From contig JALUTT010000073.1 of the NCBI GenBank assembly GCA_027021705.1, positions 29,535 through 93,534 on the forward strand: DNA of 64,000 nt, in the 5' to 3' direction. The notes beneath the pieces are model-generated. The model was given only the letters and a program-made list of their open reading frames with translations. It was not told the origin of the DNA and ran no database searches. Origin of the DNA: Anaerolineae bacterium. GTDB lineage: Bacteria; Chloroflexota; Anaerolineae; S140-20. Shown piece after piece: positions 12,375 to 27,777 of the stretch; position 1 is the first letter of the stretch, and each line of letters starts with the position of its first letter. The translations under genes and the position numbers were made by a program.

Positions 12375-12526
12375 TGTGATTACCCATATCTTTGGAGATA
12401 GGGAGACGAGCCGTCCACGAATGGGACACGAATACACGAATTAAGGACCGCCTCATTCGTGCATTGGTGAGAAATTCGTGGACGGCCTGCTACGGACCAC
12501 TCTCTCGCTCACTTGTGGGTAATCAC
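12375..12526. mobile_element. MITE-like palindromic element A, copy 1 (152 bp; TIR GTGATTACCCA / TGGGTAATCAC)
   Basis: Terminal inverted repeats plus internal inverted repeats (GCCGTCCACGAAT / ATTCGTGGACGGC) and a CACGAAT x3 core. Flanked by a 13-15-bp direct repeat, GCCCCGTCGCCCT(G), at 12363-12376 and 12528-12541, consistent with a target-site duplication. Confidence 0.7.
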
Positions 12527-12550
12527 CGCCCCGTCGCCCTGTCCTACTGC

Positions 12551-13840: not shown

Positions 13841-13856
13841 TCTCCTCCCTCCTTCC

Positions 13857-13929
13857 TCCTCACGTATCACGCATCACGCATCACGCATCACGCATCACGC
13901 CTCACGCCTCACGCACCACGCACCACCCC
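13857..13929. repeat. Heptanucleotide tandem array A, (NTCACGY)x~10
   Basis: ctcacgt atcacgc x4 ctcacgc x2 accacgc accacc, directly upstream of the purA start. Same unit as the arrays at 43804-43908 (inverted) and 44371-44497. Confidence 0.8.
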
Positions 13930-13966
13930 AGCACCGCATAGCAGACTGCGGACTCTGGACCGAGCT

Positions 13967-15148
13967 TCACGCCAACATCTCCACCGCCAGCGCTGCGTAG
14001 ACCGACGCCGCCTTGAAGAGGTCTTCCAGCCGGAGCTGTTCGTCGGCGGTGTGAGCGTAGCGCTCCTCTCCCGGCCCAAACCCAACGGTGGGGATGCCGG
14101 CCACGCCCATCGTGTAGGCTCCGTCGGTGGAGAAGGCCCATTGGCCGATGGTGGGACGGTAGCCCAGCGTGTTGCGGATTGTCCGCGCTAACGTTTTGAT
14201 CAGCGGGTGGCCCTCCTCCAGCGCCCAGGCCGGATAGTAGGCCCGCTGCCGGGCTTCGTAGCCGGTGTAGCTGGTGGCCCGGTACTCGGTGACCTCGACC
14301 TCGGCCCGCACCCCCTCCCGCAGGATGATCCCCTGGACCTCGGAGAGGGCCTTGGCCTCCGTCTCGCCCAGGGTCAGCCGGCGGTCAATGATGAAGCTGG
14401 CCCGGTCCGGGATGGCGTTGCGGCTGCTGGCGCTGCTCTCTACGTGGGTCACCGCCAGCGTCCCCCGGCCCAGGAAGGGGTCGTAGCCCAGCTTATCCGC
14501 CAGCAACTCCAGGCCGAAGATGAGACGGGCGGCAGCGTAGATGGCGTTCTCCCCCAGGTCGGGGTTCGAGGCGTGGCAGGAGCGCCCGTGGGTCGTCACC
14601 TGCATCTCCAGCCGGCCCCGGTGGCCCCGGCTGATCTGCAGGTTGGTGGCCTCGCCCAGCACCACCCAGTCGGGCCGCAGCCCTTCCTCCTCGATCAGGA
14701 CCTGCATCGCCAGCCCCTCGCAGGGCTCCTCCTGGACCACGCAGGCGACGACCAGGTCGCCCTTCAGCCGGACGCGGGCCTCGGCCAGCATCTTCACGCC
14801 GTAGATCATCGCCGCGATCGCGCCCTTCATGTCGGCCACGCCTCGCCCGTAGATGATCCCGTCTTCGACCTCGCCGCCGTAGGGGTCCCGTTGCCAGGCC
14901 TCGGGGTCCGAGATGCCCACCGTGTCCATATGGCCGTTGTAGAGCAAGATGGGGCCGCGGCCGCTGCCGTAGCGCCCGATGACGTTGCCGATCCGGTCGG
15001 TGAAGACCTCTCGAAAGCCGACCCGCCGCATCGCCGCCGCAATGCGGATGGCGACGGCCTCCTCCTGGGTGGACGGGCTGGGCGTGCGGATCAGGTCCTG
15101 CAGGAACTCGACCAACTCCTCGCGATCTGAGCGCGATAGGGTGAACAT
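13967..15148 (-). CDS. M20-family metallopeptidase (ArgE/DapE/ACY1-like deacylase)
   Basis: LLYNGHMDTVG, GRGVADMKGAIAAM, dimerisation domain. Start at MFTLSR (15148); the ORF-track 5' extension to 15895 is noncoding/overlapping. Confidence 0.8.
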   Translation of the reverse strand: MFTLSRSDREELVEFLQDLIRTPSPSTQEEAVAIRIAAAMRRVGFREVFTDRIGNVIGRYGSGRGPILLYNGHMDTVGISDPEAWQRDPYGGEVEDGIIYGRGVADMKGAIAAMIYGVKMLAEARVRLKGDLVVACVVQEEPCEGLAMQVLIEEEGLRPDWVVLGEATNLQISRGHRGRLEMQVTTHGRSCHASNPDLGENAIYAAARLIFGLELLADKLGYDPFLGRGTLAVTHVESSASSRNAIPDRASFIIDRRLTLGETEAKALSEVQGIILREGVRAEVEVTEYRATSYTGYEARQRAYYPAWALEEGHPLIKTLARTIRNTLGYRPTIGQWAFSTDGAYTMGVAGIPTVGFGPGEERYAHTADEQLRLEDLFKAASVYAALAVEMLA

Positions 15149-15168
15149 AGCGTGGCCTCCGATGTACG

Positions 15169-16599
15169 CTAGTAGGCTCCGTCCCCGGTCAGGATCTTGG
15201 GAATGGTGCGCAGCAGGATCTTGAAATCCAGGACCGGGGACCAGTGTTCGATGTAGTAGATGTCCAGCAAGCACATCTCGTCGAAGGTCAGCTCGCTGCG
15301 GCCACTGACCTGCCAGAGGCCGGTGATGCCGGGACGGACCTCCAGACGGCGTTTGTGCCATTCCTGATACTGGCGGACCTCTTCGGGCAGCGGGGGGCGC
15401 GGTCCGACCAGGCTCATCTCCCCCCGCAGGACGTTGAAGAGCTGGGGGAGTTCGTCCAGGCTGGTGCGCCGCAGCCACCGCCCCACCCGCGTCCGCCGGG
15501 GATCGTCTCGGATCTTGAAGAGGGGGCCATCGGCCTCGTTCAGGGCGGCCAACCGTCGGCGCTCCGCTTCGGCACCGATGTGCATTGAGCGGAACTTGTA
15601 GATGACGAAGTGCCGACCGTTTTTGCCCACCCGCACCTGGCGGAAGAGGGCCGGCCCCGGGGAGTCCAGGCGGATCAACAGGGCGATGAGCCCCATCAGG
15701 GGGGAGAGCACCAGGAGGGCCAGGGCAGCCAGGGCGATGTCCATCGCCCGCTTGAAGCGCTCCTGCCAACGACCGATGAGCGGCTCTCGCACCCCGATGA
15801 GGGGGATCCCGCCCAGGTCGTCCACGTCCACCTGGCTGAGGCTCATCTGGAAGAGGTCGGGGACGATGCGGGCCCGCACCTGCTTCCGCTCGCACTCCCG
15901 GACGATGTTCATGATCTTGCGGTGATACATCCAGGGCAGGGTGATGATCACCACGTCCACCTTTTCGCCTTCGATCACCCGCGCCAGGTTCTCCAGGTCG
16001 CCCAACCCCCGGAAGCGGCCGATGTTCTTCCGGCCCCGCTCGGGGTTGTCGTCCACGAAGCCCACGACCTGGTAGCCCAGCTCCGGGCGGGCGACCAGGG
16101 TGCGCATCACGGCCCGGCCCACCTCGCCGGCCCCGACGATGACCACCCGCTCGGTGCCGATCCCCCGTTTGCGCAGCCGGGCCTCGATCTCCCCCCGAAC
16201 GAAGCGGCTGGCCCCCAGCAGAAGGATGATGAGGGCGCCGGCCTCCAGGAACATCAGCCCGGAGTAGTAGAGGGGGCGGGTGGCGAAGACGACGGCGAAG
16301 AGGATGATGATCGCCTTGGCCGTGCTGTTGACAATGGCGTACATCTGGTCGAACCAGGAGACGCCTCGGGGGCCGTTGTAGACCCCATCCAGCTTGAAGG
16401 TGATCAGCAGCAGGAGCGTCAGGCCGGCGGCGAAAGGGATGTAGACGGAGAAGGGCGCGTCGTAGCTGACCTCGCGGAAGAGGCGCAGCCGGTAGCGCAT
16501 CCAGTAGGCCAGGACGAAGGCCCCGTTGATCAGGATGACGTCCGTGATCACCGTGAGCCAGAGGATCCGGCGACGAAACCGCTGGGCCATCTTACCCAT
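15169..16599 (-). CDS. Polyprenyl glycosylphosphotransferase (WbaP/CpsE-type bacterial sugar transferase)
   Basis: N-terminal TM helices, Rossmann-like NAD-binding-type region ([11 protein letters not shown]). C-terminal sugar-transferase signature [42 protein letters not shown]...[21 protein letters not shown]. Confidence 0.8.
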
Positions 16600-17761
16600 C
16601 CTGCAACGCTCGCCGATAGGCCACGACGGTCTGGGAGGCCGTCTGGGCCCAGGTGAAGCGGGCGGCCTGCGCCTGACCCCGCTCTCGCAGGTGGAGGCGC
16701 AGGGCCTCGTCCTTCAGCAGCCGCGCCATCGCCCCCGCCAGCCCCTCCACGTCATCGGGGGGCACGAGGAGGCCGGCCTCGCCCACCACCTCCGGCAGGG
16801 CGCTGCTGCGGGCAGCGATCACCGGGGTGCCACAGGCCATCGCCTCCAGCAGGGGCATGCCGAACCCCTCGTAGAGGGAAGGGTAGACGAAGAAAGTGGC
16901 GGCGCTGTACCAGAGGGGCAACTCCTCGTCGGGCACGAAGCCGGGAAAGCGCACCCGGTCGGAGAGCCCCAGGGCCCGCGCCTGGGCGAAGAGGGGGTCG
17001 TAGTACCAACCCTTCCCACCGGCGATGACCAGCGTGACCTCCTCCTCTGGGTGCTGCTCTCGGAGCCGGGCGAAGGCCCGGAGCAGGGTGGGCAGGTTCT
17101 TGCGGGGCTCCAGCGTGCCCACGAAGAGGATGAAGCGGTCGGGAAGCCCTCTGGCCTGGCGGAAGGCGGCCACCTGGGCCGGCGGGTAGGGGTGGAAGCG
17201 GGTGTGGTCCACGCCGTGGACCACGACATCCACCCGTTCTTCAGGAAAGCCGAGCAGGCGCACCACCTCCGTTCGGGTGTAGTGGGATACGGCGATGATC
17301 CGGCGGGCGCGACGGGCCGAGAGCCGAGTCATCCAGGTCAGGTAGAGCCGGTTGGCCGGGCGGAATCGCTCCGGGAAGCGCAAGAAGCTCAGGTCGTGCA
17401 CCGTCACCACCGTGGGACAGGGACTCCAGAGGGGCGCGACGAAGGCCAGGGCGTGCAACAGATCCACCCTGGCCTGGCGTAGCGCCCACGGTTGCGCCAC
17501 CTGCTCCCATAGGATGCGGACCAGAGGGCGCTCGGTGGGCCAGCGGGTCGCGCGAACGGTCAGGGTGGCCTGCCGACCTGGTCCGCCAGACGGGACAGGC
17601 CGCCCGCGACCGGTGAAGACGGTGTAACGGAAGGTCGGGTCGGCCTGGGGAAGGTGATGCAGCAGATGGTAGATGTAACCGTGAATCCCTGCGCTGCGGT
17701 AGCCGGCCTGGCCGGACAGCAGTTGAGCATTGAGACCCACGTGGCCGCGCATACCCGGCAT
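16592..17761 (-). CDS. Glycosyltransferase family 4 (GT-B)
   Basis: GT4 C-terminal motif YSAATFFVYPSLYEGFGMPLLEAMACGTPVIA; overlaps the downstream sugar-transferase gene by 8 nt. Confidence 0.75.
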   Translation of the reverse strand: MPGMRGHVGLNAQLLSGQAGYRSAGIHGYIYHLLHHLPQADPTFRYTVFTGRGRPVPSGGPGRQATLTVRATRWPTERPLVRILWEQVAQPWALRQARVDLLHALAFVAPLWSPCPTVVTVHDLSFLRFPERFRPANRLYLTWMTRLSARRARRIIAVSHYTRTEVVRLLGFPEERVDVVVHGVDHTRFHPYPPAQVAAFRQARGLPDRFILFVGTLEPRKNLPTLLRAFARLREQHPEEEVTLVIAGGKGWYYDPLFAQARALGLSDRVRFPGFVPDEELPLWYSAATFFVYPSLYEGFGMPLLEAMACGTPVIAARSSALPEVVGEAGLLVPPDDVEGLAGAMARLLKDEALRLHLRERGQAQAARFTWAQTASQTVVAYRRALQDG

Positions 17762-17821
17762 TATACCACCTTTTGCCCGATTCTGCGAGATGAGCAGGCC
17801 CTGTCGGACAACACGAAGCGA

Positions 17822-17845
17822 GGCCGGGGGCAGACTCCCCCGGCC
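17822..17845 (-). terminator. GC hairpin (GGCCGGGGG-cagact-CCCCCGGCC) downstream of the beta-helix gene
   Basis: Perfect 9-bp inverted repeat 43 nt past the stop at 17888. Weak U-tract, so tentative. Confidence 0.3.
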
Positions 17846-17887
17846 TCGTCTTCCCGCTTCCTCGCCCAGGTTGGCGAAGCAGCGTCC

Positions 17888-19954
17888 TCAGGGCTCGACG
17901 GGCGATACCGGTAGGTCGGACGTGGACGATTCGGCTTCTGGAGCGTTCGTCGAGTTCATCGTCGGACAGCCCTCGTCCACGATGTCCTGGCCGTTGTTGC
18001 GGAACCGGTTGCCCACCTCTTGGAAGTTGGTGGCGCAGTAGAGGTAGATGCCAACGTCGTTGTTCTTGATGAGGTTCCGCTTGGCCAGGGTGTTGTCGGA
18101 GGTGTCCACCACGATGCCGTAGCCGTTGCCCAGCACCTTGTTGAAGGCCAGTCGGGCGTTGTTCGACTCCCAGAGGTAGATGCCGTAGTCGTTCCCCTTC
18201 ACCGTGCTGCGCTCGAAGTTGAGATTGTGGGACTGGTAGGCGATGGCCCCGTACTCGCTGGCTTCGAGCCTCATCCCTCGGACGGAGACATCGTCGGCGA
18301 AGACAAGGTAAAGGGCGACCTGGCTATCGGTTCCACGGCTGCTCATCACCCGAGCCCCCGGCGCGTCGAGGAGCAAGTAGCCGCTGGCTGCCCAGTAGGG
18401 GCCGGTGTAGGCGATGCCGGTGACGAAGTTACCGTTGTAGATGGAACCGGTCGCGCCAAAGCCGATCTGGATGCCGTTCTGGGCGATCTTGTCCGTCGGC
18501 CCCCAACCGTAGACCCGGTTCTTCTTGATGTAGGCGATGGTGGTGCCGGTGCCGTAGTAGGAGTTGGCGGTGATGCCGTTCTTCTGGAAGTCTCTGACCG
18601 TGTTGCGCTCGATCCAGACCTTGCTGGTGCCGCCGTCCCGGCTCAACACGTAGATGCCTCCACCGCTCTGGCAGCCCTCGTAGCCGGGTGGGTGCTTGAT
18701 GCCCTTGATCTTGTTCCACTGGATTTTGCCGCTGGCGTTGAAGTAGTAGATGCCGTGGAAGCGCTCATCTCCACCCACACAGCCGGGGTAGCCACGCCCA
18801 TCGCCGTCAATGGTGAAGTTGCGCACGATGACGCGGTCGGCGTTCTTGACCCAGACGATGGGGCCTTTCTGGTCAGGCACGGCCAGGATGGTCGCCTTGT
18901 AGCGGGGGCGTCCTTCCAGCGTCAGGTTCTTGCCGTCAACGACCACCTGTTCCTCATAGGTTCCCTCGTGGACGATCACCTTGCCCCCGTCGGCCACGGC
19001 ATTCACCCCGTCTTGGATGGTGGCGAAGGCGTTGTAGCCGAAGATCCAGCCGGGGAGGACCTCTTCCTTGGGCGGCGTGCCGGCCCAGTCATCGTCCACC
19101 TTGACCACGGGAGGCGCCGGCAGGGCCATGCAGCCCGTGATGGTGATGTCGGAGAGGACGACATCGCCATAGGTGTCGTCGGGAGCCCAGAGCCCGGCGA
19201 AGAGCTGCATCCAGGCCATATCGCCCTTGAAGCTCAGGCCGGCGGGGTAGATGTCGGGCTCGTCGTCCTTCCAGCCGGCGGTGTAGAAGCCGGTGGGGAT
19301 CCCGTTGACGGTGGCGAACATCGTGCCCAGATTGGCGTTGACGGCGTGATAGGAGATCTCGATGTGGTAGATGCCACCGGTGTTGTAGGTCCCGCCGTCC
19401 ACCATCCCCCACATCACCGCCTGCCACGGGTCAACGCCGTCGCGGTCGAACCAGATGCCGTAGTTGTCGTAGGTACCAAAGGGGGCGACGACGGTATCGG
19501 GGTCGGTGGCATCGTAGTCGCGCTCGTCCCGTCCGCCGGAAGCGGCGAGGTTGTGCTTGTCGTCCAGGTCCTGGCTCTCAGGATCGGTGTCCAGGTCCCC
19601 GACGAGGGAGACCATCCAGCCGCCCTTGCCCCCCTGATAGGTGTCCCAGGGGCCTGGATTGAAGTTGCTGGCTCCCAGTTCGCGGAGCCCTACCTCAGTG
19701 TATGAGGTCTGCCAGGGTCCGGGCTGGGTGATCCCCGTCATGTCAATGGTGTAGGAGAGGGTGAGATCGCATTGGGTCAGGTCCCAGACCTCGCTCCAGT
19801 TGGTTGCCGTGTAGGCGGGGCTTAGGGTCAGGGTACCGTAATGGACGGTCGTGGGGGAGGGACCACTCGCTGTGATCGGTGCCGCGAAGACTGACGTGGT
19901 TGCCAGTACCGCAATCAGTACGAGGATCCGTAGGGTTCGACTTCGCGTTGTCAT
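17888..19954 (-). CDS. Secreted right-handed parallel beta-helix (pectate-lyase-like) repeat protein
   Basis: Signal peptide MTTRSRTLRILVLIAVLATTSVFA. PbH1-type repeats (NNARLAFNKVLGNGYGIVVDTSDNTLAKRNLIKNNDVGIYLY, ERNTVRDFQKNGITAN...). Confidence 0.75.
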   Translation of the reverse strand: MTTRSRTLRILVLIAVLATTSVFAAPITASGPSPTTVHYGTLTLSPAYTATNWSEVWDLTQCDLTLSYTIDMTGITQPGPWQTSYTEVGLRELGASNFNPGPWDTYQGGKGGWMVSLVGDLDTDPESQDLDDKHNLAASGGRDERDYDATDPDTVVAPFGTYDNYGIWFDRDGVDPWQAVMWGMVDGGTYNTGGIYHIEISYHAVNANLGTMFATVNGIPTGFYTAGWKDDEPDIYPAGLSFKGDMAWMQLFAGLWAPDDTYGDVVLSDITITGCMALPAPPVVKVDDDWAGTPPKEEVLPGWIFGYNAFATIQDGVNAVADGGKVIVHEGTYEEQVVVDGKNLTLEGRPRYKATILAVPDQKGPIVWVKNADRVIVRNFTIDGDGRGYPGCVGGDERFHGIYYFNASGKIQWNKIKGIKHPPGYEGCQSGGGIYVLSRDGGTSKVWIERNTVRDFQKNGITANSYYGTGTTIAYIKKNRVYGWGPTDKIAQNGIQIGFGATGSIYNGNFVTGIAYTGPYWAASGYLLLDAPGARVMSSRGTDSQVALYLVFADDVSVRGMRLEASEYGAIAYQSHNLNFERSTVKGNDYGIYLWESNNARLAFNKVLGNGYGIVVDTSDNTLAKRNLIKNNDVGIYLYCATNFQEVGNRFRNNGQDIVDEGCPTMNSTNAPEAESSTSDLPVSPVEP

Positions 19955-20483
19955 TGGTGTACCTCCTGAGTCGGATAAGCGGGGGAGGCCCGCCCAGTAC
20001 GCCCTCGGTTGTTCCCGATTCTCATCCTATGGTCATCACCCCAAGTGATCCTCCCGGCCGGTACGTGGGGCTTTTGTCAATGTGCCCAGAGTCAAACCTC
20101 TCCGGTCGTTCGATCACCTCCTTTCCGACAAAAAATAAGCCCCACCATCCACGCCGTGCGTGGCCTTGGTGTGGCTCGATCTTCCCCGGCCGACCATGAC
20201 CTGCCTCCCGTCAGGGTAGGGGAGCGGTGAGGGCAGCGATGCCGGAAACCGTGATCTTATGGAAGGCGATTTGCGCGATGATTTGGAAGAGAGTTGTCCT
20301 CGGAGGATAGTGTGGCGCAGAAGTGTTGGAAAACGGTAAGGAGAGTGTTGGAAATTGGTTAGAATCCCCATTGGTTACGGAGGGCCTGTGGCCGTGGCAG
20401 AAACGCTACCGGCCCCGGAATCCTCGATGCCGGGGCCGGCCCCAGACAGCACTCAACCAATCCACCAATGATGCCGCACCGCC

Positions 20484-23400
20484 TTACGGCCACCAGCGGC
20501 CTACATCTTGGATGGCCTGGAAGGTCCCGACAATGGCCTCTGGTCCGCCCAGGGCGTAGATAAGGGGGGCGAGGGCGCTCAGGTCGGAGAGGAGGTCCCG
20601 GCGGGTGCGCCGGGCGAGTGTGTGGAGCGTCTCCCGCCAGAGATCGTGGACGGCGTTTCGGTTCCGCTTTGCCCAGTTGGCCAAAGGGGAGGCCAGTGCC
20701 GAGAGCATCTTTCCCCGGGCACGGGTGTTCTCAACGTCCCGGGCGATCCTCAAAGTCTCCTTCAGGTCTTCTCTCGGGAGCATCTGCGGCAGGGAGGAGG
20801 CCAACTCTTCCAGTGCTTCGGCCTGTCTCTCAGCGTCCTTCTCCTCTCGCAGCGCGTCCAGAGCGTTCCGCAGAGCGTGTTCCTGCTCCGGCTCCGGCAG
20901 GTGGGGGATCAGACGGGCCAGAACCTGAACCCGCCGGGTCGGCCGGACGATCTCCTCCGTGGCCATCATAGCCTCTAGGAGTGCCTGCCTCCGTAGCGCT
21001 TCCGGCGGATGGAACAAGGCCAGTTCCCGAAGTTCCTCGGCTCGCGTGGCCGCATCGGAGATCCCTCGGATCGTGGAGAGGGCCTCCAGCCAGCGGCCTT
21101 GTCCTGCCATAAGGCGTGCAATGGCCCTCAACACGCGATCGAACTGCCTCCTGGACCCATTGCCCCGAAGCGTTGGGGCAGCCCTCGCGACTTCCCATAG
21201 CATGGTCTCCCACGGGGAAAAGGCCGGTTCCTCTCCCATTTCCCAGAGTATTTGCTGCCGTAGGGCCGCAGGAAGGTAGGAGAGGTGAAGCAGTTCCCAC
21301 ACCACAGAGGCTTGGATCCAAGGGTCCTCAATCCCTCGTGCCGCTTCCCACGCTTCCCATAGGGCCTCTTCCCGTTGCGGAGGGGGCAGGTGGGCGGCCA
21401 ACACCCGCAGAGTCTGGGCTCGCAGACTCTTGTCCTCGATCTCCCCCGCCGCCGACAGAGCTTTCTGCTGGACACCTTCTCGCAGCGTCGCCTCCGGGAA
21501 GTTGTGAGAGAGCAATCTTAGCAGGGCGTCAGCTTGCTGCCATGGGTCCTCGATCTGCGAGGCCGTTTCCACAGCTTCCTGCAGGGCCTCCTGTTGTCGT
21601 GGCTTCGACTCCTGCTGTTGTGACTCCGACTCCTGTTGTCGTGGCTCTGAGAGGTGGAGAGCCAGTTGCGCCAGCAGGTTGACCCGTAGGTAGGGGTCCT
21701 GGACGTTCCGGGTGGCTTGCCAGGCGTTCTGAAGGGCCTTTTCGCGATCCTGGGCTGAGAGATGGGGGGCAATGTCGGCCAGAGTCTGTGCCCGCCGGTA
21801 CTCGTTGGTGATTTCGCGGGCTGCGGCCAGGGCCTCCTGGAGGGCCGCCCCCCGCTCCCCCCCCGCCAAGTGACGGGCCAGCTCGATCAACGTCCTGGCT
21901 TGTGCACCCCTATCCCCGATGCCCTGGACGGTTGCCAGAGCCTCTTGGAGAGCCCGCTTGCGGGGGGATGGCGGCAAGCGAGGAGCCAGTTCCAGGAGCA
22001 CCTCCACCCGTGTCCGGGGGTCTCGGACCTCCCGGGCCGCCGTCAACGCCTCCCGGAGGACTTGTTGCCGTGCCGATTTCGACAAGTAGTAGGAGGTAGC
22101 CAGGTGCAAGAGCGTGCGGGCCCGAACCGGCGCGTCCCGAATCTGCCGCGCTGCGACCAGCGCTTCCGTGATGTAACCCTGTCTCGCCAGGCGCCGGACT
22201 TGGGTCTGGGGTAGCTCGACAGGCATCGTCCTTCTCCGAAGCACCGAGGCGGCTTTCTGGATCGCTTGCAAAGCTTGCTCTTCCCACTTCGGTGGGAGGT
22301 GATGGCTCAGCGCCAGGAGGGTCTCTATCCGAAGATGGGCATCTTGAATGCGCTGCGCTGCTGCCAAGGCCTCTAGACTCCGGCCCTGCTGCGCCAGACC
22401 CAATGCCCGGTCCCTGAACTCCTCATCCTGCGGGTTGCCCTCGCGGAGATCCCGGGCGGCTGCCAGCGCTTCCTCCAGGACAGGGGCGTACTGGGATGCC
22501 GGCAGATACTCGATCAGGCTGAGCAGGGCTCCGGCGCGGATCCGAGCATCCCGGATCGTTCGCGCCACGTCCAACGCCTCGCGCAGCAGCGTCTCCGGGA
22601 GGTAGGGGGCCAGGGAGGCCAGGGCCTGAGCCCGTTGCTCCTCCCGCTCGATTCCCCGGGCGGCTGTCAGCGCTTCCCGGACGGCCCGTTCTCGCTGCTC
22701 GTCCGATACGTAAGAGCAGGAAGCAAGAGCCAGAAAAGCCTCGACCTGCTCTTTGGCATCGCGGGTATTCCGAGCTACGGCCCAGGCTCGTGCTAATAAG
22801 CGCTGCTTCCACGTTTCGTTCGGCAGGTGGGGAACCAGATCCAACAGGGCTGCTACCTGATCTGGGCCTTTTCGGATACTCCTCACAGCCCTGCTCGCTT
22901 CGTGCCAGTCTCCCTGCTCGGCCCAGTGTCGGGCCAGCATCTTCAACACGTTATCCTCTAAGCTCTCTGTCTCCTGTACGGCCGCCTGTGCAACTTGTAC
23001 CGCCTTGGCTCGCAACGCTTCCGACAGGTGAGGAAACAGGTCTGCAAGCGTCCGGATCCGTATCTCCACTCTCTCGATGTTGCTGGCTATGCTCAGGGCC
23101 TCTTCCTGCAGTGCTTCCGGCGAATGGGGAGCCAGGGTTCTGAGGATTGCGGCCTTCCATTCCTCCTCCTCAATCGCCCTCACCGTGGATAGGGCCTCCT
23201 GCCAGAGGGATTCCCGTTCCGACTCGGTTAGAGCGGGACAGGTTGCGATCTCCCGAAGTGCCTGGATCCGATCCTCGGGCCATAGAATCCCTTGGGTGGC
23301 TTTCCGGGCTTTCTTCACGGCTTCTCCCTGTTGCCTATCTGGCAGGTGGGGAATCAGCTTTACGAGCGCTGACACGCGCTCTCGTTCGTCGGCAATCCGC

Positions 23401-26153
23401 GATGTTGCTTCCAACACCTCCTGCAGAGTTTGCTCCCGCTCCGGTTCGGGCATATAAGGAGCTAGGCCGGCGAGGGCCTTGATCCGGTCATCCCTGTCCT
23501 CAATCTGCCTGGCTATGGTCCATGCCCCTTGGAGTAAGGTCTCGTCCCTCTCGAGAGAAGGAGCCAGCCCGGCGAGGGCTTCTGCCCGGACCTCGGTCCA
23601 TTCGATCTGCTGAACGACCGCTAGTGCCTTTGAGAAGAGGTCTTGGGACAGATGGGGGGCCAGCTTCACCAGTGCCTCCGCCCGTTGCCCCGCGTCCGGC
23701 GCCTGCCGGGCGTAGGCCAGCCCTTGGGCCGGAGGCCACTCCTTTTTCTCCACCAGTGCCGCCAGCAGTTGTGGGGGGATGTTCTTGGCCAGGCTGTTGA
23801 GGGAGGCAGTGATGAGGGCGTAGCGGCATTGGAGGGCGATGTCCTCACCCCTCTCCCCGGCCCCCTCCCCTCTCCCACCCGGTGAGAGAGGGGAGGGGGT
23901 GGCGGCGGCCGCTGTCGGGGGTTCTTCCACCAGCCCCCAGGCTCGCGCCACGTCGGTCAGGAAGCCGTCGGTGTCTCCCACGGCCTCCTTAGTCGCGTAC
24001 CAGGCGTTCTCGTGCCGGCGGCGCTGGTGGGTCCGCTTCTGGCCCGGAAGTTGGCCAGGCCGCTCCTTCGGCCCAGGGCAGGTGTAGGGCACCTCCTCTT
24101 CATGCACCCATTCCACCCGCAACAGGCGATGCAGGTCCTCCCCCCGGCCCGCCCCTTCCAAGTGGGCCGCCAGGTGGCGCAGGCCGTAGCCGCCGTCCAG
24201 GTCCCGCCTCCCCGGCTCCCGCAGCCCCGGCAGCCCCGCCTCTAGCCCGCTCCAGGCCGCCAGGTACCGGTCGGCGATGCGGGCGTGGGCCTGCTGCGTG
24301 GCCGCCGCCAGCTCCTCCGTCAGGCTCCGCTCCACCTCCGTCAGCCGCTCTAGGTCGGCCCGCCCGTCCAGGAACTCCCGCAGGCTGGCGTGGTAGAGGC
24401 GGTAGCGGCGGTCCCCTGCGGTGCCCTCCACGGCCAGGAAGGGCCGCCAGGCCTCCCGCAGTAACCGCTCCAGATCAGGCCGCACCTCCACCCCGGCCAG
24501 GGTGCAGAGCCGAGGGAAGGGGAGGGCCTCTTGGGCGGCGGCCAGGGTGCTCAGCAGAGGGAGGTAGTCGGTGTACCATCGGGGATCATCCCGCCACCGA
24601 CTCCAGTACTGGGCGTAGTACTGCCACACGCCCTCCGGCAGGGTCGCCAGGTCCAGGGGGGAGCGCTCCCCGCGCTCGATCTCGCCCACCACGTAGTGCA
24701 GGTAGATCCACACCCCCCGGCATTTCTCCAGCAGCGCGGCCACGAACTGCTCCCGCGCATACCCCTGCTCGGCCAGGGCCCGGGCCACCCCCGACCAGGT
24801 GGCGGCCGCCTCCAGGTAGGCCCGCATATCGGCCCGGTTCTTCTCGCTCTGGGCTTCCAGGCGAAAGACCCGGCGCGGCCCCTCCACCCGCAGCGTCACC
24901 GCCACCGGCCGCTGGGAGATGATGAGGTAGACGCCTTGGGGGAGCACGCGCGGCAAGCCCAGGACGTTCTGGCCCGGCGGGGTTCCGGCCTCGTCCAGGC
25001 CGTCCACCACCAGGACGATTTGCTCTCCGGGCCGCACCTCGTCCCGCTTGCGGGCCGCCTCGAAGAGCAGGTTCAGGAGGAAGTGGGGGCGGGCTGCCGA
25101 GCCGGGCAGCACCCCCTCGGCCTGATGGGGGTCGAGCAGCCAGGCCCGCACCAATTGGGCGGCCAGGTTGCGTAGGCCGGTGGCGTCGTCACCGGGGGCC
25201 AGTTCCACGAAGTGGTGGATGTACCCCTGGGTCTTCACCAGGTGGGCCAGGAAGGTGGTCTTGCCCAACCCGGCGGCGGCTTCCAGGACGAACAGACCCC
25301 GGTCGTTATCCCGCAGGAAGGCGTCCACCTCGGCGGTCAGCCACTCCCGGCCCACGAAGCGGTCCAGCTTCACCCGCTCGAAGACGGACCAAGGGGGGAT
25401 GTAGGCGTCCCGCAGCCGCTCGTAATCACCGACGAAGACCCGGTTGTGGTCGCCGGTGATGAGGATGCTATGGATGGCCTGGCCGCCGATGGAGATGCTG
25501 CACTCACCGGAGGGTTCCTCGGGCTTCTCCGGCGGGTGCAGTTCCAGAGGCTCCGGGCACAGGGCCTGCACCGTCTCGGCGGGGATGGCGTAGGCGTAGC
25601 GTACTCTGGGAGCATCCTCTTCCTCAGGACGCCTCATATCGCGGTAACGGGTGATCATCCCGACCACGCGCCCGGTGACGATGTCCAGCACCGGCGCGCC
25701 GCTGAGGCCCCTGTCCACTTCAGGTCCCTGGACCTGGAGTAGGCGGATGGGCCAGCCTTGCACCGGCACCAGCCCACCGATCTTCGCCTGGGGCCAGCGG
25801 GCGAGCGCAGGGCCGTCCGCCGGGTAGCCCAGGGCCTGGTAGGGATGGCCGTTGCTCCCGTGGGCCGGGCCCAAGGTGGCGGGGTGTGTTCCTTCGGGCA
25901 ACACCCCAACCACCCGCAGGAAGGCCACATCCTTCTCCGGTTGCCAGCCCTTGGGGAGGACCTCGGCCTCCGCCGGTTCACCTCCAACGTGGAAGGCAAG
26001 CCGCACCCGCTTGCCCGGGCAGGCTCCGGCGGCCTCGACCACGTGCACGCAGGTCACCACCAGGTCCGGGCGCACGAGAAAGCCGGTGCCTATCGTCCGG
26101 CCCCTGGCGTTTTCGACGCGGACAACGCAAGCCTCCAGATCCGTTGCTTCCAC
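20484..26153 (-). CDS. Giant tripartite protein: N-terminal trypsin-like Ser protease (S1 fold) - STAND/NACHT-like P-loop NTPase - ~1000-aa HEAT/PBS-lyase-like repeat array
   Basis: 1889 aa, GTG start. Protease triad in chymotrypsin order: His in DLVVTCVHVV, Asp in EKDVAFLRV, Ser in GLSGAPVLD (aa ~1-200; nt ~25554-26153). NTPase: Walker A EAAAGLGKTTFLAHL (~nt 25270), Walker B QIVLVVDGLDEAG (~nt 25030), then winged-helix-like region. About 30 tandem ~31-aa repeats of the form A(R/L)xIxDxxxRaxALaxLAPHLP...ALqEAL, from aa ~800 to the end (nt ~20484-23750). Confidence 0.85.
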   Translation of the reverse strand: MEATDLEACVVRVENARGRTIGTGFLVRPDLVVTCVHVVEAAGACPGKRVRLAFHVGGEPAEAEVLPKGWQPEKDVAFLRVVGVLPEGTHPATLGPAHGSNGHPYQALGYPADGPALARWPQAKIGGLVPVQGWPIRLLQVQGPEVDRGLSGAPVLDIVTGRVVGMITRYRDMRRPEEEDAPRVRYAYAIPAETVQALCPEPLELHPPEKPEEPSGECSISIGGQAIHSILITGDHNRVFVGDYERLRDAYIPPWSVFERVKLDRFVGREWLTAEVDAFLRDNDRGLFVLEAAAGLGKTTFLAHLVKTQGYIHHFVELAPGDDATGLRNLAAQLVRAWLLDPHQAEGVLPGSAARPHFLLNLLFEAARKRDEVRPGEQIVLVVDGLDEAGTPPGQNVLGLPRVLPQGVYLIISQRPVAVTLRVEGPRRVFRLEAQSEKNRADMRAYLEAAATWSGVARALAEQGYAREQFVAALLEKCRGVWIYLHYVVGEIERGERSPLDLATLPEGVWQYYAQYWSRWRDDPRWYTDYLPLLSTLAAAQEALPFPRLCTLAGVEVRPDLERLLREAWRPFLAVEGTAGDRRYRLYHASLREFLDGRADLERLTEVERSLTEELAAATQQAHARIADRYLAAWSGLEAGLPGLREPGRRDLDGGYGLRHLAAHLEGAGRGEDLHRLLRVEWVHEEEVPYTCPGPKERPGQLPGQKRTHQRRRHENAWYATKEAVGDTDGFLTDVARAWGLVEEPPTAAAATPSPLSPGGRGEGAGERGEDIALQCRYALITASLNSLAKNIPPQLLAALVEKKEWPPAQGLAYARQAPDAGQRAEALVKLAPHLSQDLFSKALAVVQQIEWTEVRAEALAGLAPSLERDETLLQGAWTIARQIEDRDDRIKALAGLAPYMPEPEREQTLQEVLEATSRIADERERVSALVKLIPHLPDRQQGEAVKKARKATQGILWPEDRIQALREIATCPALTESERESLWQEALSTVRAIEEEEWKAAILRTLAPHSPEALQEEALSIASNIERVEIRIRTLADLFPHLSEALRAKAVQVAQAAVQETESLEDNVLKMLARHWAEQGDWHEASRAVRSIRKGPDQVAALLDLVPHLPNETWKQRLLARAWAVARNTRDAKEQVEAFLALASCSYVSDEQRERAVREALTAARGIEREEQRAQALASLAPYLPETLLREALDVARTIRDARIRAGALLSLIEYLPASQYAPVLEEALAAARDLREGNPQDEEFRDRALGLAQQGRSLEALAAAQRIQDAHLRIETLLALSHHLPPKWEEQALQAIQKAASVLRRRTMPVELPQTQVRRLARQGYITEALVAARQIRDAPVRARTLLHLATSYYLSKSARQQVLREALTAAREVRDPRTRVEVLLELAPRLPPSPRKRALQEALATVQGIGDRGAQARTLIELARHLAGGERGAALQEALAAAREITNEYRRAQTLADIAPHLSAQDREKALQNAWQATRNVQDPYLRVNLLAQLALHLSEPRQQESESQQQESKPRQQEALQEAVETASQIEDPWQQADALLRLLSHNFPEATLREGVQQKALSAAGEIEDKSLRAQTLRVLAAHLPPPQREEALWEAWEAARGIEDPWIQASVVWELLHLSYLPAALRQQILWEMGEEPAFSPWETMLWEVARAAPTLRGNGSRRQFDRVLRAIARLMAGQGRWLEALSTIRGISDAATRAEELRELALFHPPEALRRQALLEAMMATEEIVRPTRRVQVLARLIPHLPEPEQEHALRNALDALREEKDAERQAEALEELASSLPQMLPREDLKETLRIARDVENTRARGKMLSALASPLANWAKRNRNAVHDLWRETLHTLARRTRRDLLSDLSALAPLIYALGGPEAIVGTFQAIQDVGRWWP

Positions 26154-26496
26154 CGCTCAACCCTATCCCTTGTTTTGTCCGTGCTGTCTCAAAAGCATTG
26201 ATGAGCTTATGCCGCATTTGCGCAATGATCGGCTCCTCATCTGCTCCAGATCATCGGAGAACACCGCGCCTTTTGGGGGAGGGAGGAGGATGTGGGCAAC
26301 TAAGCTGACGGACAAGGGGCTCTTTCCAGGAATGCCTTCCCGCGCATCCTGGATGGCGCCATCACTCCTGTCATCGGCCATTGTATGACAACTGGTCAGA
26401 AAAGTCAAGGAATTTACGCAACAACACAGTACAAATCCCCCAAGATACGCGATGCGCAATACGTGTCACACAATGCGACGCGACACGATTTCCCCG

Positions 26497-26647
26497 GTGA
26501 TTACCCATATCTTTGGAGATAGGGAAACGAGCCGTCCACGAATGGGGCACGAATACACGAATCAAGGACCGCCTCATTCGTGCATTTGTGAGAAATTCGT
26601 GGACGGCCTGCTACGGACCACTCTCTCGCTCCCTTGTGGGTAATCAC
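26497..26647. mobile_element. MITE-like palindromic element A, copy 2 (151 bp)
   Basis: About 95% identical to copy 1. Flanked by a 9-bp direct repeat CGATTTCCC (26486-26494 and 26650-26658). It lies between the giant gene's upstream leader and the divergent FtsK-like gene. Confidence 0.7.
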
Positions 26648-26751
26648 CGCGATTTCCCTCTTGACACAGAACAAATGTTCTGGTATCATGTAGCCAGCCC
26701 CTTCCACCGCGTGACAGGCAACCCGCCATACGCATCGCCCGAGGTGTTCCG

Positions 26752-27777
26752 ATGGCCCGCAAGACCAACCGTCAGCTCCTAGAGCTCCAGGCCGATCGCA
26801 TCGAGATGGTCCTGGCCCGGCACAGGGCTCCCGCTCGCGTCGCCGGCGGTGTCGTCACCCCCCGCTGGGTCCGCTTCCACCTGCTCCCCGCCCTGGGGAC
26901 CTCCCTGGCCCGCATCAAGCGCCTCTCCGAGGAGCTGGCTCTCGCCCTGGGTGCCCCCGCCTGCCGCATCAGTCGCCGGGGAGAGCAGTTGGCCCTGGAG
27001 GTTCCCCGTCCCGACCCCCAGCCGGTGCGGCTGCTCCCTTTGCTCCGCTCCCTGGCCCCCCTCCCCTTTGGCACGGCCCTGCTGGGGCTGGCCGAGGATG
27101 GCGCTCCCCTGCTGCTCCGCTTCCCCTCCCCCGACGTGACCCACGTCCTGGTGGCCGGCACCACGGGGTCGGGCAAGACGGCCCTCCTGCGGACCATCAT
27201 CCTCTCCCTGGCCCTGAGCCACCGGCCCCGCGAGTGGGGCTTCGTCTTGGTAGATCCGAAGGGCCGGGCCTTCGAGGGGCTGGCGGGGCTGCCCCACCTG
27301 GTGAGGCCCATCATTCGGGAGGTGGACGACGCCCAGAGCGTGCTGGAGGAGGTGGTCGAGCTGATGGAGCGGCGAGATCGGGAAGGGGTGGCGGAGCCCC
27401 GGCTGCTGGTCGTGGTGGACGAACTGGCGGACCTGCTGCTGGTGGGGAGACGGGGAGGGAGGGGACAGCCATCGGTGTTGCCCCTCCTGGTGCGGCTGGC
27501 CCAGCGAGGACGGGAGGCCGGGGTACACCTGCTGGTGGCGACCCAGAAACCGTCGGCGGCGGTGGTGGGGACGCTGTTGCGGGCCAACTTCCCGGTGCGG
27601 CTGGTAGGACGGGTGGCAAGCTCGGAGGATGCGCGGGTGGCGGCGGGGCGCGGGGGCACCGGGGCGGAGCGGTTGCTGGGACGGGGGGACTTCCTGGCGG
27701 TGGCAGGCGGGCAGGTGGTGCGCTTCCAGGCAGCCTACGTAGGGCAGGACGAGATTCGCCGGTTCGGAGGTGCGTGA
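26752..27777 (+). CDS. FtsK/SpoIIIE-family motor-only ATPase (mini-FtsK; no TM or gamma domain)
   Basis: Walker A HVLVAGTTGSGKTALLRTII, Walker B RLLVVVDELADLL, FtsK arginine-finger region HLLVATQKPSAAVVGTLLRANFPVRLVGRVASSEDARV...GRGDFL. Only 341 aa. Confidence 0.75.
   Translation: MARKTNRQLLELQADRIEMVLARHRAPARVAGGVVTPRWVRFHLLPALGTSLARIKRLSEELALALGAPACRISRRGEQLALEVPRPDPQPVRLLPLLRSLAPLPFGTALLGLAEDGAPLLLRFPSPDVTHVLVAGTTGSGKTALLRTIILSLALSHRPREWGFVLVDPKGRAFEGLAGLPHLVRPIIREVDDAQSVLEEVVELMERRDREGVAEPRLLVVVDELADLLLVGRRGGRGQPSVLPLLVRLAQRGREAGVHLLVATQKPSAAVVGTLLRANFPVRLVGRVASSEDARVAAGRGGTGAERLLGRGDFLAVAGGQVVRFQAAYVGQDEIRRFGGA

What the first reader, a model, noticed from the sequence alone, without database searches (positions are those of the whole stretch)
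20484..26153. Giant protease-STAND NTPase-HEAT repeat protein with Avs/bNACHT-like architecture in an accessory-looking context
A single 1889-aa ORF fuses three parts. First, a chymotrypsin-fold serine protease with an intact H-D-S triad. Second, a P-loop NTPase with Walker A GLGKTT and Walker B VVDGLDE followed by a winged-helix-like region (STAND/NACHT-like). Third, about 30 HEAT/PBS-lyase-like ~31-aa repeats. Effector-NTPase-repeat sensor is the logic of antiviral STAND (Avs) and bacterial NACHT immunity/abortive-infection proteins, and of the peptidase-NTPase 'apoptotic' proteins noted in multicellular bacteria. A trypsin-like effector with a HEAT-type sensor is an uncommon combination. 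The gene is monocistronic. It has an AT-richer ~340-bp leader and a ~500-bp AT-richer 3' region. A MITE-like element and a divergently oriented mini-FtsK lie immediately upstream, all of which suggests horizontal acquisition.
Basis: partly seen in the sequence, partly recalled or inferred. Interest (0 to 1): 0.85.

Follow-up and report, generated by a model that had tools for sequence, protein, structure and literature searches.

The report
Solitary protease-NACHT-repeat immune-type sensor gene
This 1889-residue gene from an Anaerolineae-type (Chloroflexota) bacterium encodes an NLR-like protein (a serine protease, a NACHT-type switch ATPase and a long helical-repeat sensor), a kind of bacterial immune or cell-death protein already described, so it is a new member of a known class rather than a new kind of system.

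Summary
The ORF is real: 20484-26153, minus strand, 1889 aa.

- **Protease.** The N-terminal domain is an HtrA/MarP-like chymotrypsin-fold protease with an intact triad (H37, D75, S151).
- **NTPase.** The central module is a STAND NTPase by fold (Apaf-1, MalT, Avs3). It carries the NACHT signature D[GAS]hDE (D384-G-L-D-E) and the conserved winged-helix His588.
- **Repeats.** The C-terminal 1,000 residues form an all-alpha solenoid. The period is 36 aa, not 31. Pfam finds no HEAT match; the repeats are TPR/PPR-like at best. A conserved cap ends the protein in GRWWP.
- **Family.** The NTPase module defines a large family, with 1151 50%-identity clusters at E<=1e-30. N-terminal domains are swapped among members (trypsin, caspase, TIR, DUF4062, EAD1, HD, or none), and the repeat arrays diverge fast.
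- **Nearest relative.** One metagenomic relative shares a 92% nucleotide-identical NTPase cassette but has no protease and a different repeat array.
- **Closest characterised system.** This is Avs1b of AVAST type 1 (weak, colinear HMM match). The gene lacks the Avs1a pro-nuclease, and it lacks the Trypco partners seen beside two homologs.
- **Context.** Neighbouring genes are housekeeping. The mini-FtsK is a conserved Chloroflexota gene, and base composition is ordinary. Horizontal acquisition is therefore not shown.

Verdict: new member of a known kind; moderate-low interest.

The parts
20484..26153 (-). Whole ORF: 1889 codons plus stop, GTG start.
   Evidence: GC3 is 0.79. An identical protein, P0001, exists in a JGI metagenome.
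25554..26129 (-). Trypsin-like (HtrA/MarP-type) serine protease domain, residues ~9-200. Catalytic codons: H37 (26043-26045), D75 (25929-25931), S151 (25701-25703).
25434..25553 (-). Flexible linker, residues ~201-240. This is the fusion point: similarity to the protease-less relative starts at residue 219.
   Evidence: pLDDT is below 50 for residues 208-235. The nucleotide match to L052 begins at window 25499.
24354..25433 (-). NACHT-type STAND module (nucleotide-binding domain, helical domain, winged helix), residues ~241-600. Walker A G295-T299 (25257-25269). Walker B/NACHT signature D384-E388 (24990-25004). Sensor-1 R415 (24909-24911). Winged-helix H588 (24390-24392).
23709..24353 (-). Helical region with a beta-hairpin insert between the winged helix and the repeats, residues ~601-815.
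   Evidence: Secondary structure and pLDDT of model m3e0286b252c1. Conserved across the family.
20739..23702 (-). Alpha-solenoid of ~36-aa helical-hairpin repeats, residues 818-1805. Consensus: xIxDxxxRAxALxxLAPHLPxxxxxxALxEALxAAR. This is the presumed sensor.
   Evidence: Autocorrelation peak at lag 36. 23 units plus one partial unit found by a self-built HMM. AF2 model is all-alpha with pLDDT 84. Profile match to designer PPR 6een, E=1e-19. Foldseek gives only generic TPR/HEAT solenoids.
20487..20738 (-). Conserved C-terminal cap, residues 1806-1889: ...LWRETLHTLARRTRRDLLSDLSALAPLIYALGGPEAIVGTFQAIQDVGRWWP.
   Evidence: It is the only C-terminal stretch conserved family-wide (consensus; sequences). 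It retains 74% nucleotide identity to L052 where the repeats do not align.
26380..26408 (-). Promoter-like site TTGACT-17-TACAAT, ~227 nt upstream of the GTG start.
   Evidence: This is a consensus match only.
20411..20441 (.). GC-rich hairpin CCGGCCCCGG...CCGGGGCCGG, 43 nt 3' of the stop codon. Possible transcript end; no T-run.
   Evidence: Read directly from the sequence. The terminator scan did not call it.
26494..26650 (.). Multi-copy nested-palindrome (MITE/REP-like) element in the upstream intergenic region. It is not part of the gene, but it also lies just upstream of the closest relative's gene.
   Evidence: A 96% identical copy lies at L052:7741-7897, about 100 bp upstream of where the nucleotide match to this gene starts (L052:8001).

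Best explanation
The gene encodes a stand-alone NLR-like sensor-executioner of the bacterial NACHT/Avs type.

**Proposed mechanism**
1. At rest, the NACHT module is nucleotide-bound and locked, with the winged-helix His588 contacting the nucleotide. The protease domains are monomeric and ineffective.
2. The ~1000-residue solenoid of 36-aa helical hairpins binds a specific macromolecular cue. The most likely cue is a conserved phage or mobile-element protein, recognised by shape.
3. Binding releases the lock. The NACHT modules oligomerise in an NTP-dependent way.
4. Oligomerisation brings the N-terminal HtrA/MarP-like serine proteases together and so activates them.
5. The proteases cleave cellular target protein(s). 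No dedicated substrate is encoded next to the gene. The result is growth arrest or death of the infected cell, which protects its kin.

**Shown here:** the three-part anatomy, intact catalytic and switch motifs, STAND fold, NACHT signature, effector swapping and sensor diversification in the family, and the gene's solitary status.

**Inferred by analogy with characterised Avs and bNACHT proteins:** ligand sensing by the repeats, oligomerisation, proximity activation of the protease, and the immune outcome.
For: **Protease**
- Intact H37/D75/S151 aligned to MarP and conserved in all 7 trypsin-bearing members.

**Switch**
- Walker A, Walker B and sensor-1 motifs are invariant or near-invariant.
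- D[GAS]hDE is present in 45 of 45 sequences and His588 in 44 of 45.
- These are the features Kibby et al. use to define NACHT. Mutation of that His hyperactivates NLRC4.
- Fold matches: Apaf-1, Avs3, CED-4 and MalT.

**Sensor**
- Confident all-alpha solenoid model.
- TPR-like alpha-repeats are the commonest Avs sensors. They bind one phage protein by shape complementarity (PMC13581612).

**Hallmarks of a conflict system**
- Of 119 homologs, 74 start within 40 residues of the NTPase module and so have no N-terminal domain. The 22 longer N-terminal extensions that were scanned include trypsin, DUF4062, caspase, TIR, EAD1, HD-CE and NNH2.
- The nearest relative is 88% identical over the first 830 residues (its match covers only the NTPase-helical part), but only 48% identical in the repeats.
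- That relative shares a 91.8% nucleotide-identical NTPase cassette joined to no protease and to a recently amplified repeat array.
- Homologs sit next to Mu-like transposase and integrase genes, or next to other giant trypsin-STAND proteins.

**Link to a characterised system**
- The PADLOC Avs1b model matches both the protease (profile 16-107) and the NTPase (profile 199-466) in order.
- Oligomerisation-dependent activation of such fused trypsin-like proteases has been shown experimentally for Hachiman and AVAST (PMC12799240).
Against: - There is no experimental evidence for this protein or for any member of its subfamily.
- The window shows no defence island. Neighbouring genes are housekeeping (purA, purB, guaA, aroA, mfd, sugar transferases). 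No PADLOC defence model matched the seven neighbouring ORFs scanned within about 5 kb on either side, apart from generic FtsK/HerA-type ATPase similarity of the mini-FtsK.
- The partners of the characterised or predicted trypsin systems are absent. These are the MBL pro-nuclease Avs1a and Trypco1/2. The substrate is therefore unknown.
- Pfam NACHT falls just below its gathering score.
- Fold searches do not prefer NACHT structures over Apaf-1 or MalT.
- Most family members have no N-terminal effector at all. The family's output may therefore not depend on a fused enzyme.
Confidence: 0.65

Rival explanations
1. Avs1-type gated pro-effector activation. The protease has one dedicated substrate, a pro-toxin encoded elsewhere in the genome. 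Examples would be an MBL pro-nuclease with gating loops, a gasdermin-like pore former, or a Trypco-type partner. The protease only unmasks the toxin after sensing. This shares sensing and oligomerisation with the best explanation and differs in the killing step.
For: - Avs1b cleaves the separately encoded Avs1a pro-nuclease (PMC12799240).
- The Avs1b HMM is the best PADLOC hit.
- Two trypsin-bearing homologs have a ~100-aa Trypco1 or Trypco2 gene immediately upstream. This matches the pairing noted by Kaur et al..
Against: - In the reported systems the nuclease partner is typically encoded immediately upstream of the protease gene.
- Here the gene stands alone, with 598 bp upstream and 529 bp downstream.
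- Neither flank holds a recognisable ORF.
- tblastn finds no Trypco homolog anywhere in the 64-kb window.
- None of the 36 larger window ORFs scanned against Pfam (about four fifths of those likely to be coding) has an MBL-fold match.
Confidence: 0.2
2. A non-immune signalling role. The protein would be a STAND-type regulator or a developmental cell-death switch used by a filamentous Chloroflexota bacterium for its own physiology. The repeats would sense an endogenous protein or metabolite, and the protease would process a regulatory target, in the manner of MalT-like or apoptosis-like regulation.
For: - The gene sits in a housekeeping neighbourhood with no defence genes nearby.
- HtrA/MarP-type proteases usually act in stress signalling and protein quality control (established knowledge of those families).
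- Kaur et al. tie such systems to a multicellular habit.
Against: - The STAND gene is absent beside the mini-FtsK in all 50 Chloroflexota loci found with the mini-FtsK, 42 of which hold at least 3 kb of DNA upstream of it.
- There is no close ortholog among 5.8 billion proteins. The best match is 61% identical and has a different architecture.
- Effector swapping among trypsin, caspase, TIR and HD domains, together with fast-evolving repeats, is typical of conflict systems and not of conserved regulators.
Confidence: 0.12
3. The 36-aa repeats are PPR-like and bind nucleic acid. The protein would then be an RNA-sensing NLR, with a modular helical-repeat array reading single-stranded RNA, rather than a protein sensor.
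For: - The family profile matches designer PPR proteins (6een, E=1e-19) and an artificial PPR scaffold (4ozs).
- The period of 36 aa is close to the 35 aa of PPR.
- Faint PPR Pfam hits are on record for relatives.
Against: - The HMMER alignment has low per-residue accuracy (0.4-0.66). It is driven by A/L/E-rich periodicity.
- Pfam PPR does not hit this protein.
- Foldseek finds TPR and HEAT solenoids equally well, with TM-scores of only 0.1-0.25.
- Characterised Avs alpha-repeat sensors bind proteins.
Confidence: 0.04

Closest known systems
Avs1b of AVAST type 1 (for example the Erwinia piriflorinigrans EpiAvs system)
   Same: - Same order of parts: an N-terminal trypsin-like serine protease fused to a STAND NTPase, followed by a long C-terminal region.
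- Similar size: the PADLOC Avs1b profile has 1924 positions, against 1889 aa here.
- The Avs1b HMM matches the protease (profile 16-107) and the NTPase (profile 199-466) colinearly.
- Avs1b is triggered by phage terminase, and its fused protease then acts. Oligomerisation is reported to activate such fused effectors.
   Different: - The HMM score is low: 59 bits overall and 29 bits without the protease.
- No Avs1a MBL pro-nuclease or other partner gene is adjacent.
- The NTPase carries the NACHT signature.
- The sensor is made of regular 36-aa repeats with a GRWWP cap.
- The host is an Anaerolineae-type Chloroflexota bacterium, not an enterobacterium.
Bacterial NACHT (bNACHT) NLR-related proteins (Kibby et al.)
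   Same: - D[GAS]hDE Walker B signature and the conserved winged-helix His.
- Tripartite layout: effector, NACHT module, repeat sensor.
- Trypsin and caspase peptidases are listed among bNACHT effectors, and TPR/HEAT among sensors.
- Some family members carry the NACHT N-terminal helical domain NNH2.
   Different: - Pfam NACHT scores just under its threshold for this protein.
- No PADLOC model other than Avs1b, mad8 and PDC-M16A matched beyond the protease region.
- None of the experimentally tested bNACHTs mentioned in the passages read here has a trypsin effector.
- Placement among the 25 NACHT clades was not determined.
Trypco-trypsin and EAD-containing NTP-dependent conflict systems of multicellular bacteria (Kaur, Burroughs, Iyer, Aravind 2020)
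   Same: - The same phyla are involved (Chloroflexota, Planctomycetota, Actinomycetota).
- Trypsin or caspase peptidases are combined with STAND NTPases and repeat domains.
- EAD1-bearing members exist in this family.
- Trypco1 or Trypco2 genes lie directly upstream of two trypsin-bearing homologs.
   Different: - The window gene has no Trypco neighbour.
- It has no vWA-MoxR-VMAP ternary partners.
- Its trypsin domain is predicted to be active. The trypsin domains fused to the vWA component in those systems are mostly inactive.
Apaf-1 / CED-4 apoptosome
   Same: - Best Foldseek matches for the NTPase, helical and winged-helix region: Apaf-1 at 1.5e-8 and CED-4.
- Same logic: a repeat sensor triggers NTP-dependent oligomerisation, which activates a protease by proximity.
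   Different: - Apaf-1 belongs to the AP-ATPase (NB-ARC) clade, uses WD40 sensors and recruits a separate caspase through CARD.
- Here the Walker B signature is of NACHT type, the sensor is an alpha-solenoid and a serine protease is fused directly.

Membership tests
STAND NTPase superfamily | [quoted passage not shown] | tested here: met
   G295-L-G-K-T and D384 are invariant in 45 of 45 aligned relatives.
STAND NTPase superfamily | Helical and winged-helix extension C-terminal to the NTPase core. | tested here: met
NACHT clade (bNACHT) | D[GAS]hDE signature in Walker B. | tested here: met
   The motif here is D384-G385-L386-D387-E388. Across 45 relatives: D 45/45; A, G or S 45/45; L 43/45; D 40/45; E 43/45. 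The definition is quoted from Kibby et al..
NACHT clade (bNACHT) | Conserved His in the winged-helix domain (equivalent to NLRC4 H443). | tested here: met
   H588, in the motif YRLYHASLREF, is present in 44 of 45 sequences. It follows the beta-hairpin at residues 573-586 of the model. Equivalence to H443 is inferred from motif and position; the structures were not superposed.
NACHT clade (bNACHT) | Passes the curated Pfam NACHT (PF05729) threshold. | tested here: inconclusive
   The score is 24.4 bits against a cutoff of 26.7. Relatives P0035, P0051 and P0053 carry precomputed PF05729 hits, and many carry NPHP3_N.
NACHT clade (bNACHT) | Anti-phage activity that depends on the Walker A lysine. 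| not testable with these tools
   This needs expression with phage challenge and a K298A mutant.
AVAST type 1 (Avs1) | Avs1b: a trypsin-like protease fused N-terminally to a STAND NTPase. | tested here: inconclusive
   The architecture is met. The PADLOC Avs1b HMM matches colinearly, but with only 59 bits over a 1924-position model.
AVAST type 1 (Avs1) | An MBL-fold pro-nuclease (Avs1a) encoded next to the protease gene, typically upstream. | tested here: not met
   The upstream 598 bp holds no recognisable ORF. Pfam finds no MBL-fold match in the two genes next to it or in any of the 36 larger window ORFs scanned (about four fifths of those likely to be coding). The requirement is described in PMC12799240.
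AVAST type 1 (Avs1) | Activation by phage large terminase. | not testable with these tools
   This needs co-expression or binding assays.
Trypco-trypsin conflict systems (Kaur et al. 2020) | A Trypco1 or Trypco2 gene adjacent to the trypsin-domain gene. | tested here: not met
   Pfam finds nothing in the ORFs of the leader or the 3' region. tblastn with Trypco1 and Trypco2 finds nothing in the window. The feature is met in homologs P0044 (Trypco1) and P0079 (Trypco2).
HEAT / PBS-lyase HEAT-like repeats | Match to HEAT-family profiles and the stated ~31-aa period. | tested here: not met
   There is no HEAT, HEAT_2 or HEAT_PBS hit at E<=1. The period is 36 aa.
HEAT / PBS-lyase HEAT-like repeats | Alpha-solenoid built from antiparallel helix pairs. 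| tested here: met
   The model has ~60 helices in pairs and pLDDT 84. Foldseek matches TPR proteins (Ski3, IFT-A, Ctr9) and HEAT proteins (mTOR, CAND1, importins) alike. The feature therefore does not discriminate.
Pentatricopeptide (PPR) repeats | A 35-aa helical hairpin matching PPR profiles. | tested here: inconclusive
   The family profile hits designer PPR 6een at E=1e-19, but with low alignment accuracy. Pfam PPR does not match this protein.

The most novel reading that the evidence does not exclude
This subfamily may be a distinct NACHT lineage with a sensing or output logic that differs from the characterised Avs proteins. Its marks are the 36-aa 'LAPHLP' solenoid, the invariant C-terminal ...QDVGRWWP cap, and the lack of any fused effector in most members.

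One version: the conserved cap is the real signalling element, and N-terminal enzymes such as the protease are optional add-ons that kill directly without a co-encoded pro-toxin.

Another version: the PPR-like array reads a non-protein cue such as RNA.

The 92%-identical NTPase cassette joined to different heads and repeat arrays would then reflect an active recombination mechanism that generates receptor diversity within one lineage of filamentous bacteria.
Probability: 0.1. Interest if true: 0.7.

Novelty: new member of a known kind. Interest (0 to 1): 0.33.

Why it matters
If the mechanism holds, this would be a compact, single-gene bacterial counterpart of an apoptosome or inflammasome with the executioner protease built in. 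It comes from a poorly studied phylum, the Chloroflexota.

It belongs to a large, uncharacterised NACHT subfamily: 1151 50%-identity clusters at E<=1e-30.

The subfamily offers natural head-swap and sensor-swap variants, including a 92% nucleotide-identical NTPase cassette with and without the protease. These could be used to study how NLR-like receptors diversify, and what a fused serine protease cleaves when no pro-nuclease partner is present.

It does not change current concepts. Protease-STAND-repeat proteins are already catalogued, and one of them (Avs1b) is mechanistically characterised.

Tried and rejected
1. **Mini-FtsK as a partner or mobile-element marker.** Rejected. It forms a conserved pair with the 126-aa ORF downstream in many of 50 Chloroflexota loci. 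None of those loci has a STAND relative within the DNA held, up to 10 kb on either side.
2. **Compositional evidence for horizontal transfer.** Rejected. Gene GC equals the window mean, and the flanks look like other intergenic DNA.
3. **Hidden partner gene in the leader or the 3' region.** A 98-aa ORF at 26163-26459 ends 10 nt before the start codon and has a Trypco-like size. It has no Pfam hit and no tblastn similarity to Trypco1 or Trypco2, and it lies in low-GC sequence.
4. **Sequence search of the PDB.**
   - The single sequence hit only MarP.
   - The family profile hit only repeat proteins, not NTPases.
   - NTPase classification therefore rested on motifs and fold.
5. **Fold searches to separate NACHT from NB-ARC or MalT.** Inconclusive. 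Apaf-1, Avs3, MalT and NRC2 all match.
6. **Fold search of the repeat model.** Only generic solenoids with low TM-scores.
7. **Exact look-ups of the contigs encoding P0001 and P0002.** Neither is on record. P0002's contig was recovered through the metagenome scan instead.
8. **Homology search with the 85-aa C-terminal cap alone.** Only 10 short proteins of 81-148 aa were returned. It is unclear whether these are fragments or independent genes. Uninformative.
9. **Rfam scan of the window.** Only one tRNA, and nothing in the gene's leader.
10. **Terminator scan.** It did not call the hairpin 3' of the gene.
Full report
**Observation**

The window holds one uninterrupted 1889-codon ORF on the minus strand, 20484-26153, with a GTG start. 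Its N-terminus lines up with that of the trypsin-bearing homolog P0004. The third-position GC of 0.79 fits a coding sequence in this 66% GC window. An identical protein, P0001, is on record from a JGI metagenome contig of 101,992 bp.

**Protease domain**

- Pfam Trypsin_2 matches residues 22-166 at E=1e-14.
- The closest solved protein by sequence is M. tuberculosis MarP/Rv3671c. In that alignment H37 (TCVHVV), D75 (DVAFL) and S151 (GLSGAP) sit on MarP's TNAHVV, DVAIL and GDSGGP.
- All three residues are conserved in the seven trypsin-bearing family members aligned.

**NTPase module**

- Walker A is GLGKT (295-299) and Walker B is VVDGLDE (382-388). A sensor-1-like SQRP lies at 413-416. YRLYHASLREF (H588) lies in the winged-helix region. 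All are invariant or nearly so in 45 relatives.
- The fold does not discriminate between subclades, but the motifs do. Kibby et al. state that NACHT is separated from other STANDs by the D[GAS]hDE signature, and they describe the winged-helix His as a defining residue.
- Here the signature is D384-G-L-D-E, and the tiny residue is A, G or S in 45 of 45 relatives. His588 is present in 44 of 45.
- Pfam NACHT scores 24.4 bits, just under its cutoff of 26.7. Several relatives carry precomputed NACHT or NPHP3_N hits, and one carries the NACHT N-terminal helical domain NNH2.
- I therefore file the module as NACHT-type STAND. A phylogenetic placement was not done.

**Repeats**

- Autocorrelation peaks at lag 36.
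- An HMM built from the protein's own repeats finds 23 units plus one partial unit between residues 818 and 1805. The consensus is xIxDxxxRAxALxxLAPHLPxxxxxxALxEALxAAR. Wider gaps between some units probably hold degenerate repeats.
- The model of residues 760-1889 (pLDDT 84) has ~60 helices, about 30 hairpins.
- Pfam gives no HEAT-family hit even at E<=1.
- A family profile hits designer PPR proteins (E=1e-19) with low alignment accuracy.
- Foldseek returns TPR and HEAT solenoids alike, with TM-scores of 0.1-0.25.
- The safe description is a 36-aa alpha-solenoid that is TPR/PPR-like at best.
- The last ~85 residues (...GGPEAIVGTFQAIQDVGRWWP) form a cap conserved across the whole family.

**Family**

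- The NTPase module alone finds 5191 representative clusters at E<=1e-3 and 1151 at E<=1e-30. This is a large family.
- Named hits come from Anaerolineae, Caldilineaceae, Chloroflexus, Isosphaerales, Streptomyces and Paraburkholderia.
- Of 119 homologs, 74 start within 40 residues of the NTPase module and so have no N-terminal domain.
- Among 22 representative longer N-terminal extensions, Pfam finds Trypsin_2 (6), DUF4062 (2), caspase, TIR, EAD1, HD-CE and NNH2.
- The nearest relative, P0002, is 88% identical over the first 830 residues (its match covers only the NTPase-helical part), but only 48% identical in the repeats. It lacks the protease.
- At the DNA level its contig (L052) matches window 25499-23649 at 91.8%. 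The match starts exactly at the linker after the protease.
- The repeat region of L052 does not align. It is instead a recently amplified tandem array with periods of 99, 207 and 423 nt. The window gene's repeats are too diverged for Tandem Repeats Finder.
- L052 also carries a 96% identical copy of the window's palindromic element just upstream of its gene. The two sequences therefore come from the same or closely related genomes.
- This is modular head-swapping and sensor-swapping on a conserved switch, as in other NLR-like families.

**Context**

- The window is ordinary chromosome: moaA, pepA, purB, purA, sugar transferases, pfkB, aroA, guaA, mfd, two-component systems and a tRNA.
- The 341-aa FtsK-like gene transcribed divergently has relatives, 29-74% identical, in 50 loci from genome assemblies, nearly all Anaerolineae or other Chloroflexota. 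It is often followed by a relative of the 126-aa ORF at 27967-28347. None of those loci has a relative of the STAND gene within the DNA held, up to 10 kb on either side.
- The mini-FtsK is therefore neither a partner nor a sign of a mobile element. The comparison also places the source organism in Anaerolineae/Chloroflexota.
- Gene GC is 0.67 against 0.659 for the window. The flanks have GC 0.53-0.59, like the other intergenic gaps at 0.53-0.64.
- The MITE-like element is real, with three copies in the window.
- The gene appears monocistronic:
  - a promoter-like site lies at 26408-26380;
  - a GC hairpin lies 3' of the stop codon;
  - Pfam recognises nothing in the ORFs of either flank.
- Horizontal acquisition is thus not demonstrated. 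All that can be said is that the gene is not conserved at this position in relatives, at a divergence where general synteny is also gone.

**Comparison with known systems**

- The best PADLOC hit is Avs1b. It matches colinearly the protease (profile 16-107) and, when the protease is removed, the NTPase (profile 199-466, E=3e-8).
[quoted passage not shown] During infection its protease cleaves the gating loops of the separately encoded MBL pro-nuclease Avs1a. Oligomerisation is what switches on such fused proteases (PMC12799240).
- The window gene has no such neighbour, and Pfam found no MBL-fold protein in the 36 larger window ORFs scanned, about four fifths of those likely to be coding.
- Two trypsin-bearing homologs have a ~100-aa Trypco1 or Trypco2 gene directly upstream. 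This matches the pairing described by Kaur et al.. The window has none.
- A third homolog, P0004, sits beside two more giant trypsin proteins, one of them trypsin-nSTAND1-WD40.
- Kibby et al. already list trypsin and caspase peptidases among bNACHT effectors, and TPR/HEAT among sensors. The 2026 STAND survey finds TPR-like alpha-repeats to be the commonest sensors, each binding one phage protein by shape.
- The combination is therefore not unusual in kind.

**Mechanism and verdict**

The best-supported explanation is a solitary NLR-like sensor-executioner. The solenoid binds a foreign (probably phage) protein. The NACHT module exchanges nucleotide and oligomerises. The clustered HtrA/MarP-like proteases become active and cleave cellular targets, stopping the infected cell.

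Anatomy, motifs, fold and family behaviour are shown here. Ligand, oligomerisation, substrate and outcome are inferred by analogy.

Rival explanations:
- an Avs1-like dedicated pro-toxin encoded elsewhere in the genome;
- a non-immune regulatory or developmental role;
- an RNA-binding PPR-like sensor.

Novelty: a new member of a known kind. Points of modest interest:
- the uncharacterised 36-aa repeat and GRWWP-cap subfamily;
- the predominance of members with no fused effector;
- a protease head with no co-encoded substrate;
- the 92%-identical switch cassette found with different heads and sensor arrays.

Noticed in passing
window 26494-26650; also 12372-12529 and 38054-38190; L052:7741-7897: A ~155-bp nested-palindrome intergenic element. 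The outer inverted repeat is CGGTGATTACCCA / TGGGTAATCACCG, and the inner arms are 32 nt long. There are three copies in the window (83-96% identical, one with an internal deletion). A 96% identical copy lies on a related metagenome contig, again just upstream of a STAND gene. It looks like a MITE/REP-type repeat family.
   Followed up: partly
window 48503-48603 and 62789-62886; L052:6794-7637: A second ~100-bp repeat family. Two intergenic copies in the window are 75-83% identical to units of a tandem array (periods 109, 154 and 185 nt, 87-93% matches) that lies upstream of the related STAND gene in L052.
   Followed up: no
window 26752-27777 (+) and 27967-28347 (+): A 341-aa 'mini-FtsK' made of an FtsK alpha domain and the motor domain only (the best FtsK model match ends well short of its C-terminus). 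Relatives occur in 50 loci, nearly all Chloroflexota, and about half of them have a relative of the 126-aa ORF, which has no family match, downstream. It also matches the FtsK-like C-terminus of SspH, and mad8, in PADLOC. Its function is unknown.
   Followed up: partly
window 21588-21647 (inside the gene, residues ~1503-1522): An in-frame 21-nt tandem repeat, 2.9 copies, encodes a low-complexity insert (SEPRQQESESQQQESKPRQQE) that interrupts one repeat unit. It is the only DNA-level tandem repeat within the sensor array; a 15-nt x2 repeat lies further 5' in the gene at 24202-24231.
   Followed up: no
L001 (GCA_024434315.1, QMJC01000069.1), 1390-18885: The trypsin-bearing homolog P0004 sits in a cluster. 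A 623-aa HEAT_2 protein lies upstream. Two further giant Trypsin_2 proteins lie downstream: one of 2341 aa with an HTH_upst_double_PIN domain, and one of at least 1650 aa with trypsin, nSTAND1 and WD40 domains. This may be a conflict-system island in an Anaerolineae MAG.
   Followed up: no
L055:203-3339: The homolog P0044, with its Trypco1 partner, lies next to a Mu-like transposase (rve, Mu-transpos_C), an AAA_22 ATPase and a phage-type integrase. That copy is therefore on or beside a mobile element.
   Followed up: no
window 5683-6540 (+): A Uma2-family putative restriction endonuclease (E=1.5e-18) lies among housekeeping genes.
   Followed up: no
window 16592-17761 (-) and 55392-56492 (+): Two GT4 glycosyltransferases also score above the cutoff for the Pfam 'GT4-conflict' model (48.7 and 52 bits). 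Their generic GT4 scores are far higher, so this is probably family cross-match.
   Followed up: no
window 17888-19954 (-): The gene downstream of the STAND gene encodes a 688-aa protein. A NosD/parallel beta-helix domain occupies only its last ~140 residues. The N-terminal ~520 residues have no family match.
   Followed up: no
proteins P0221-P0230: A search with the 85-aa C-terminal cap alone returned only short proteins of 81-148 aa, some on contigs of 12-30 kb. It is unresolved whether these are fragments of large genes or free-standing cap-domain proteins.
   Followed up: no
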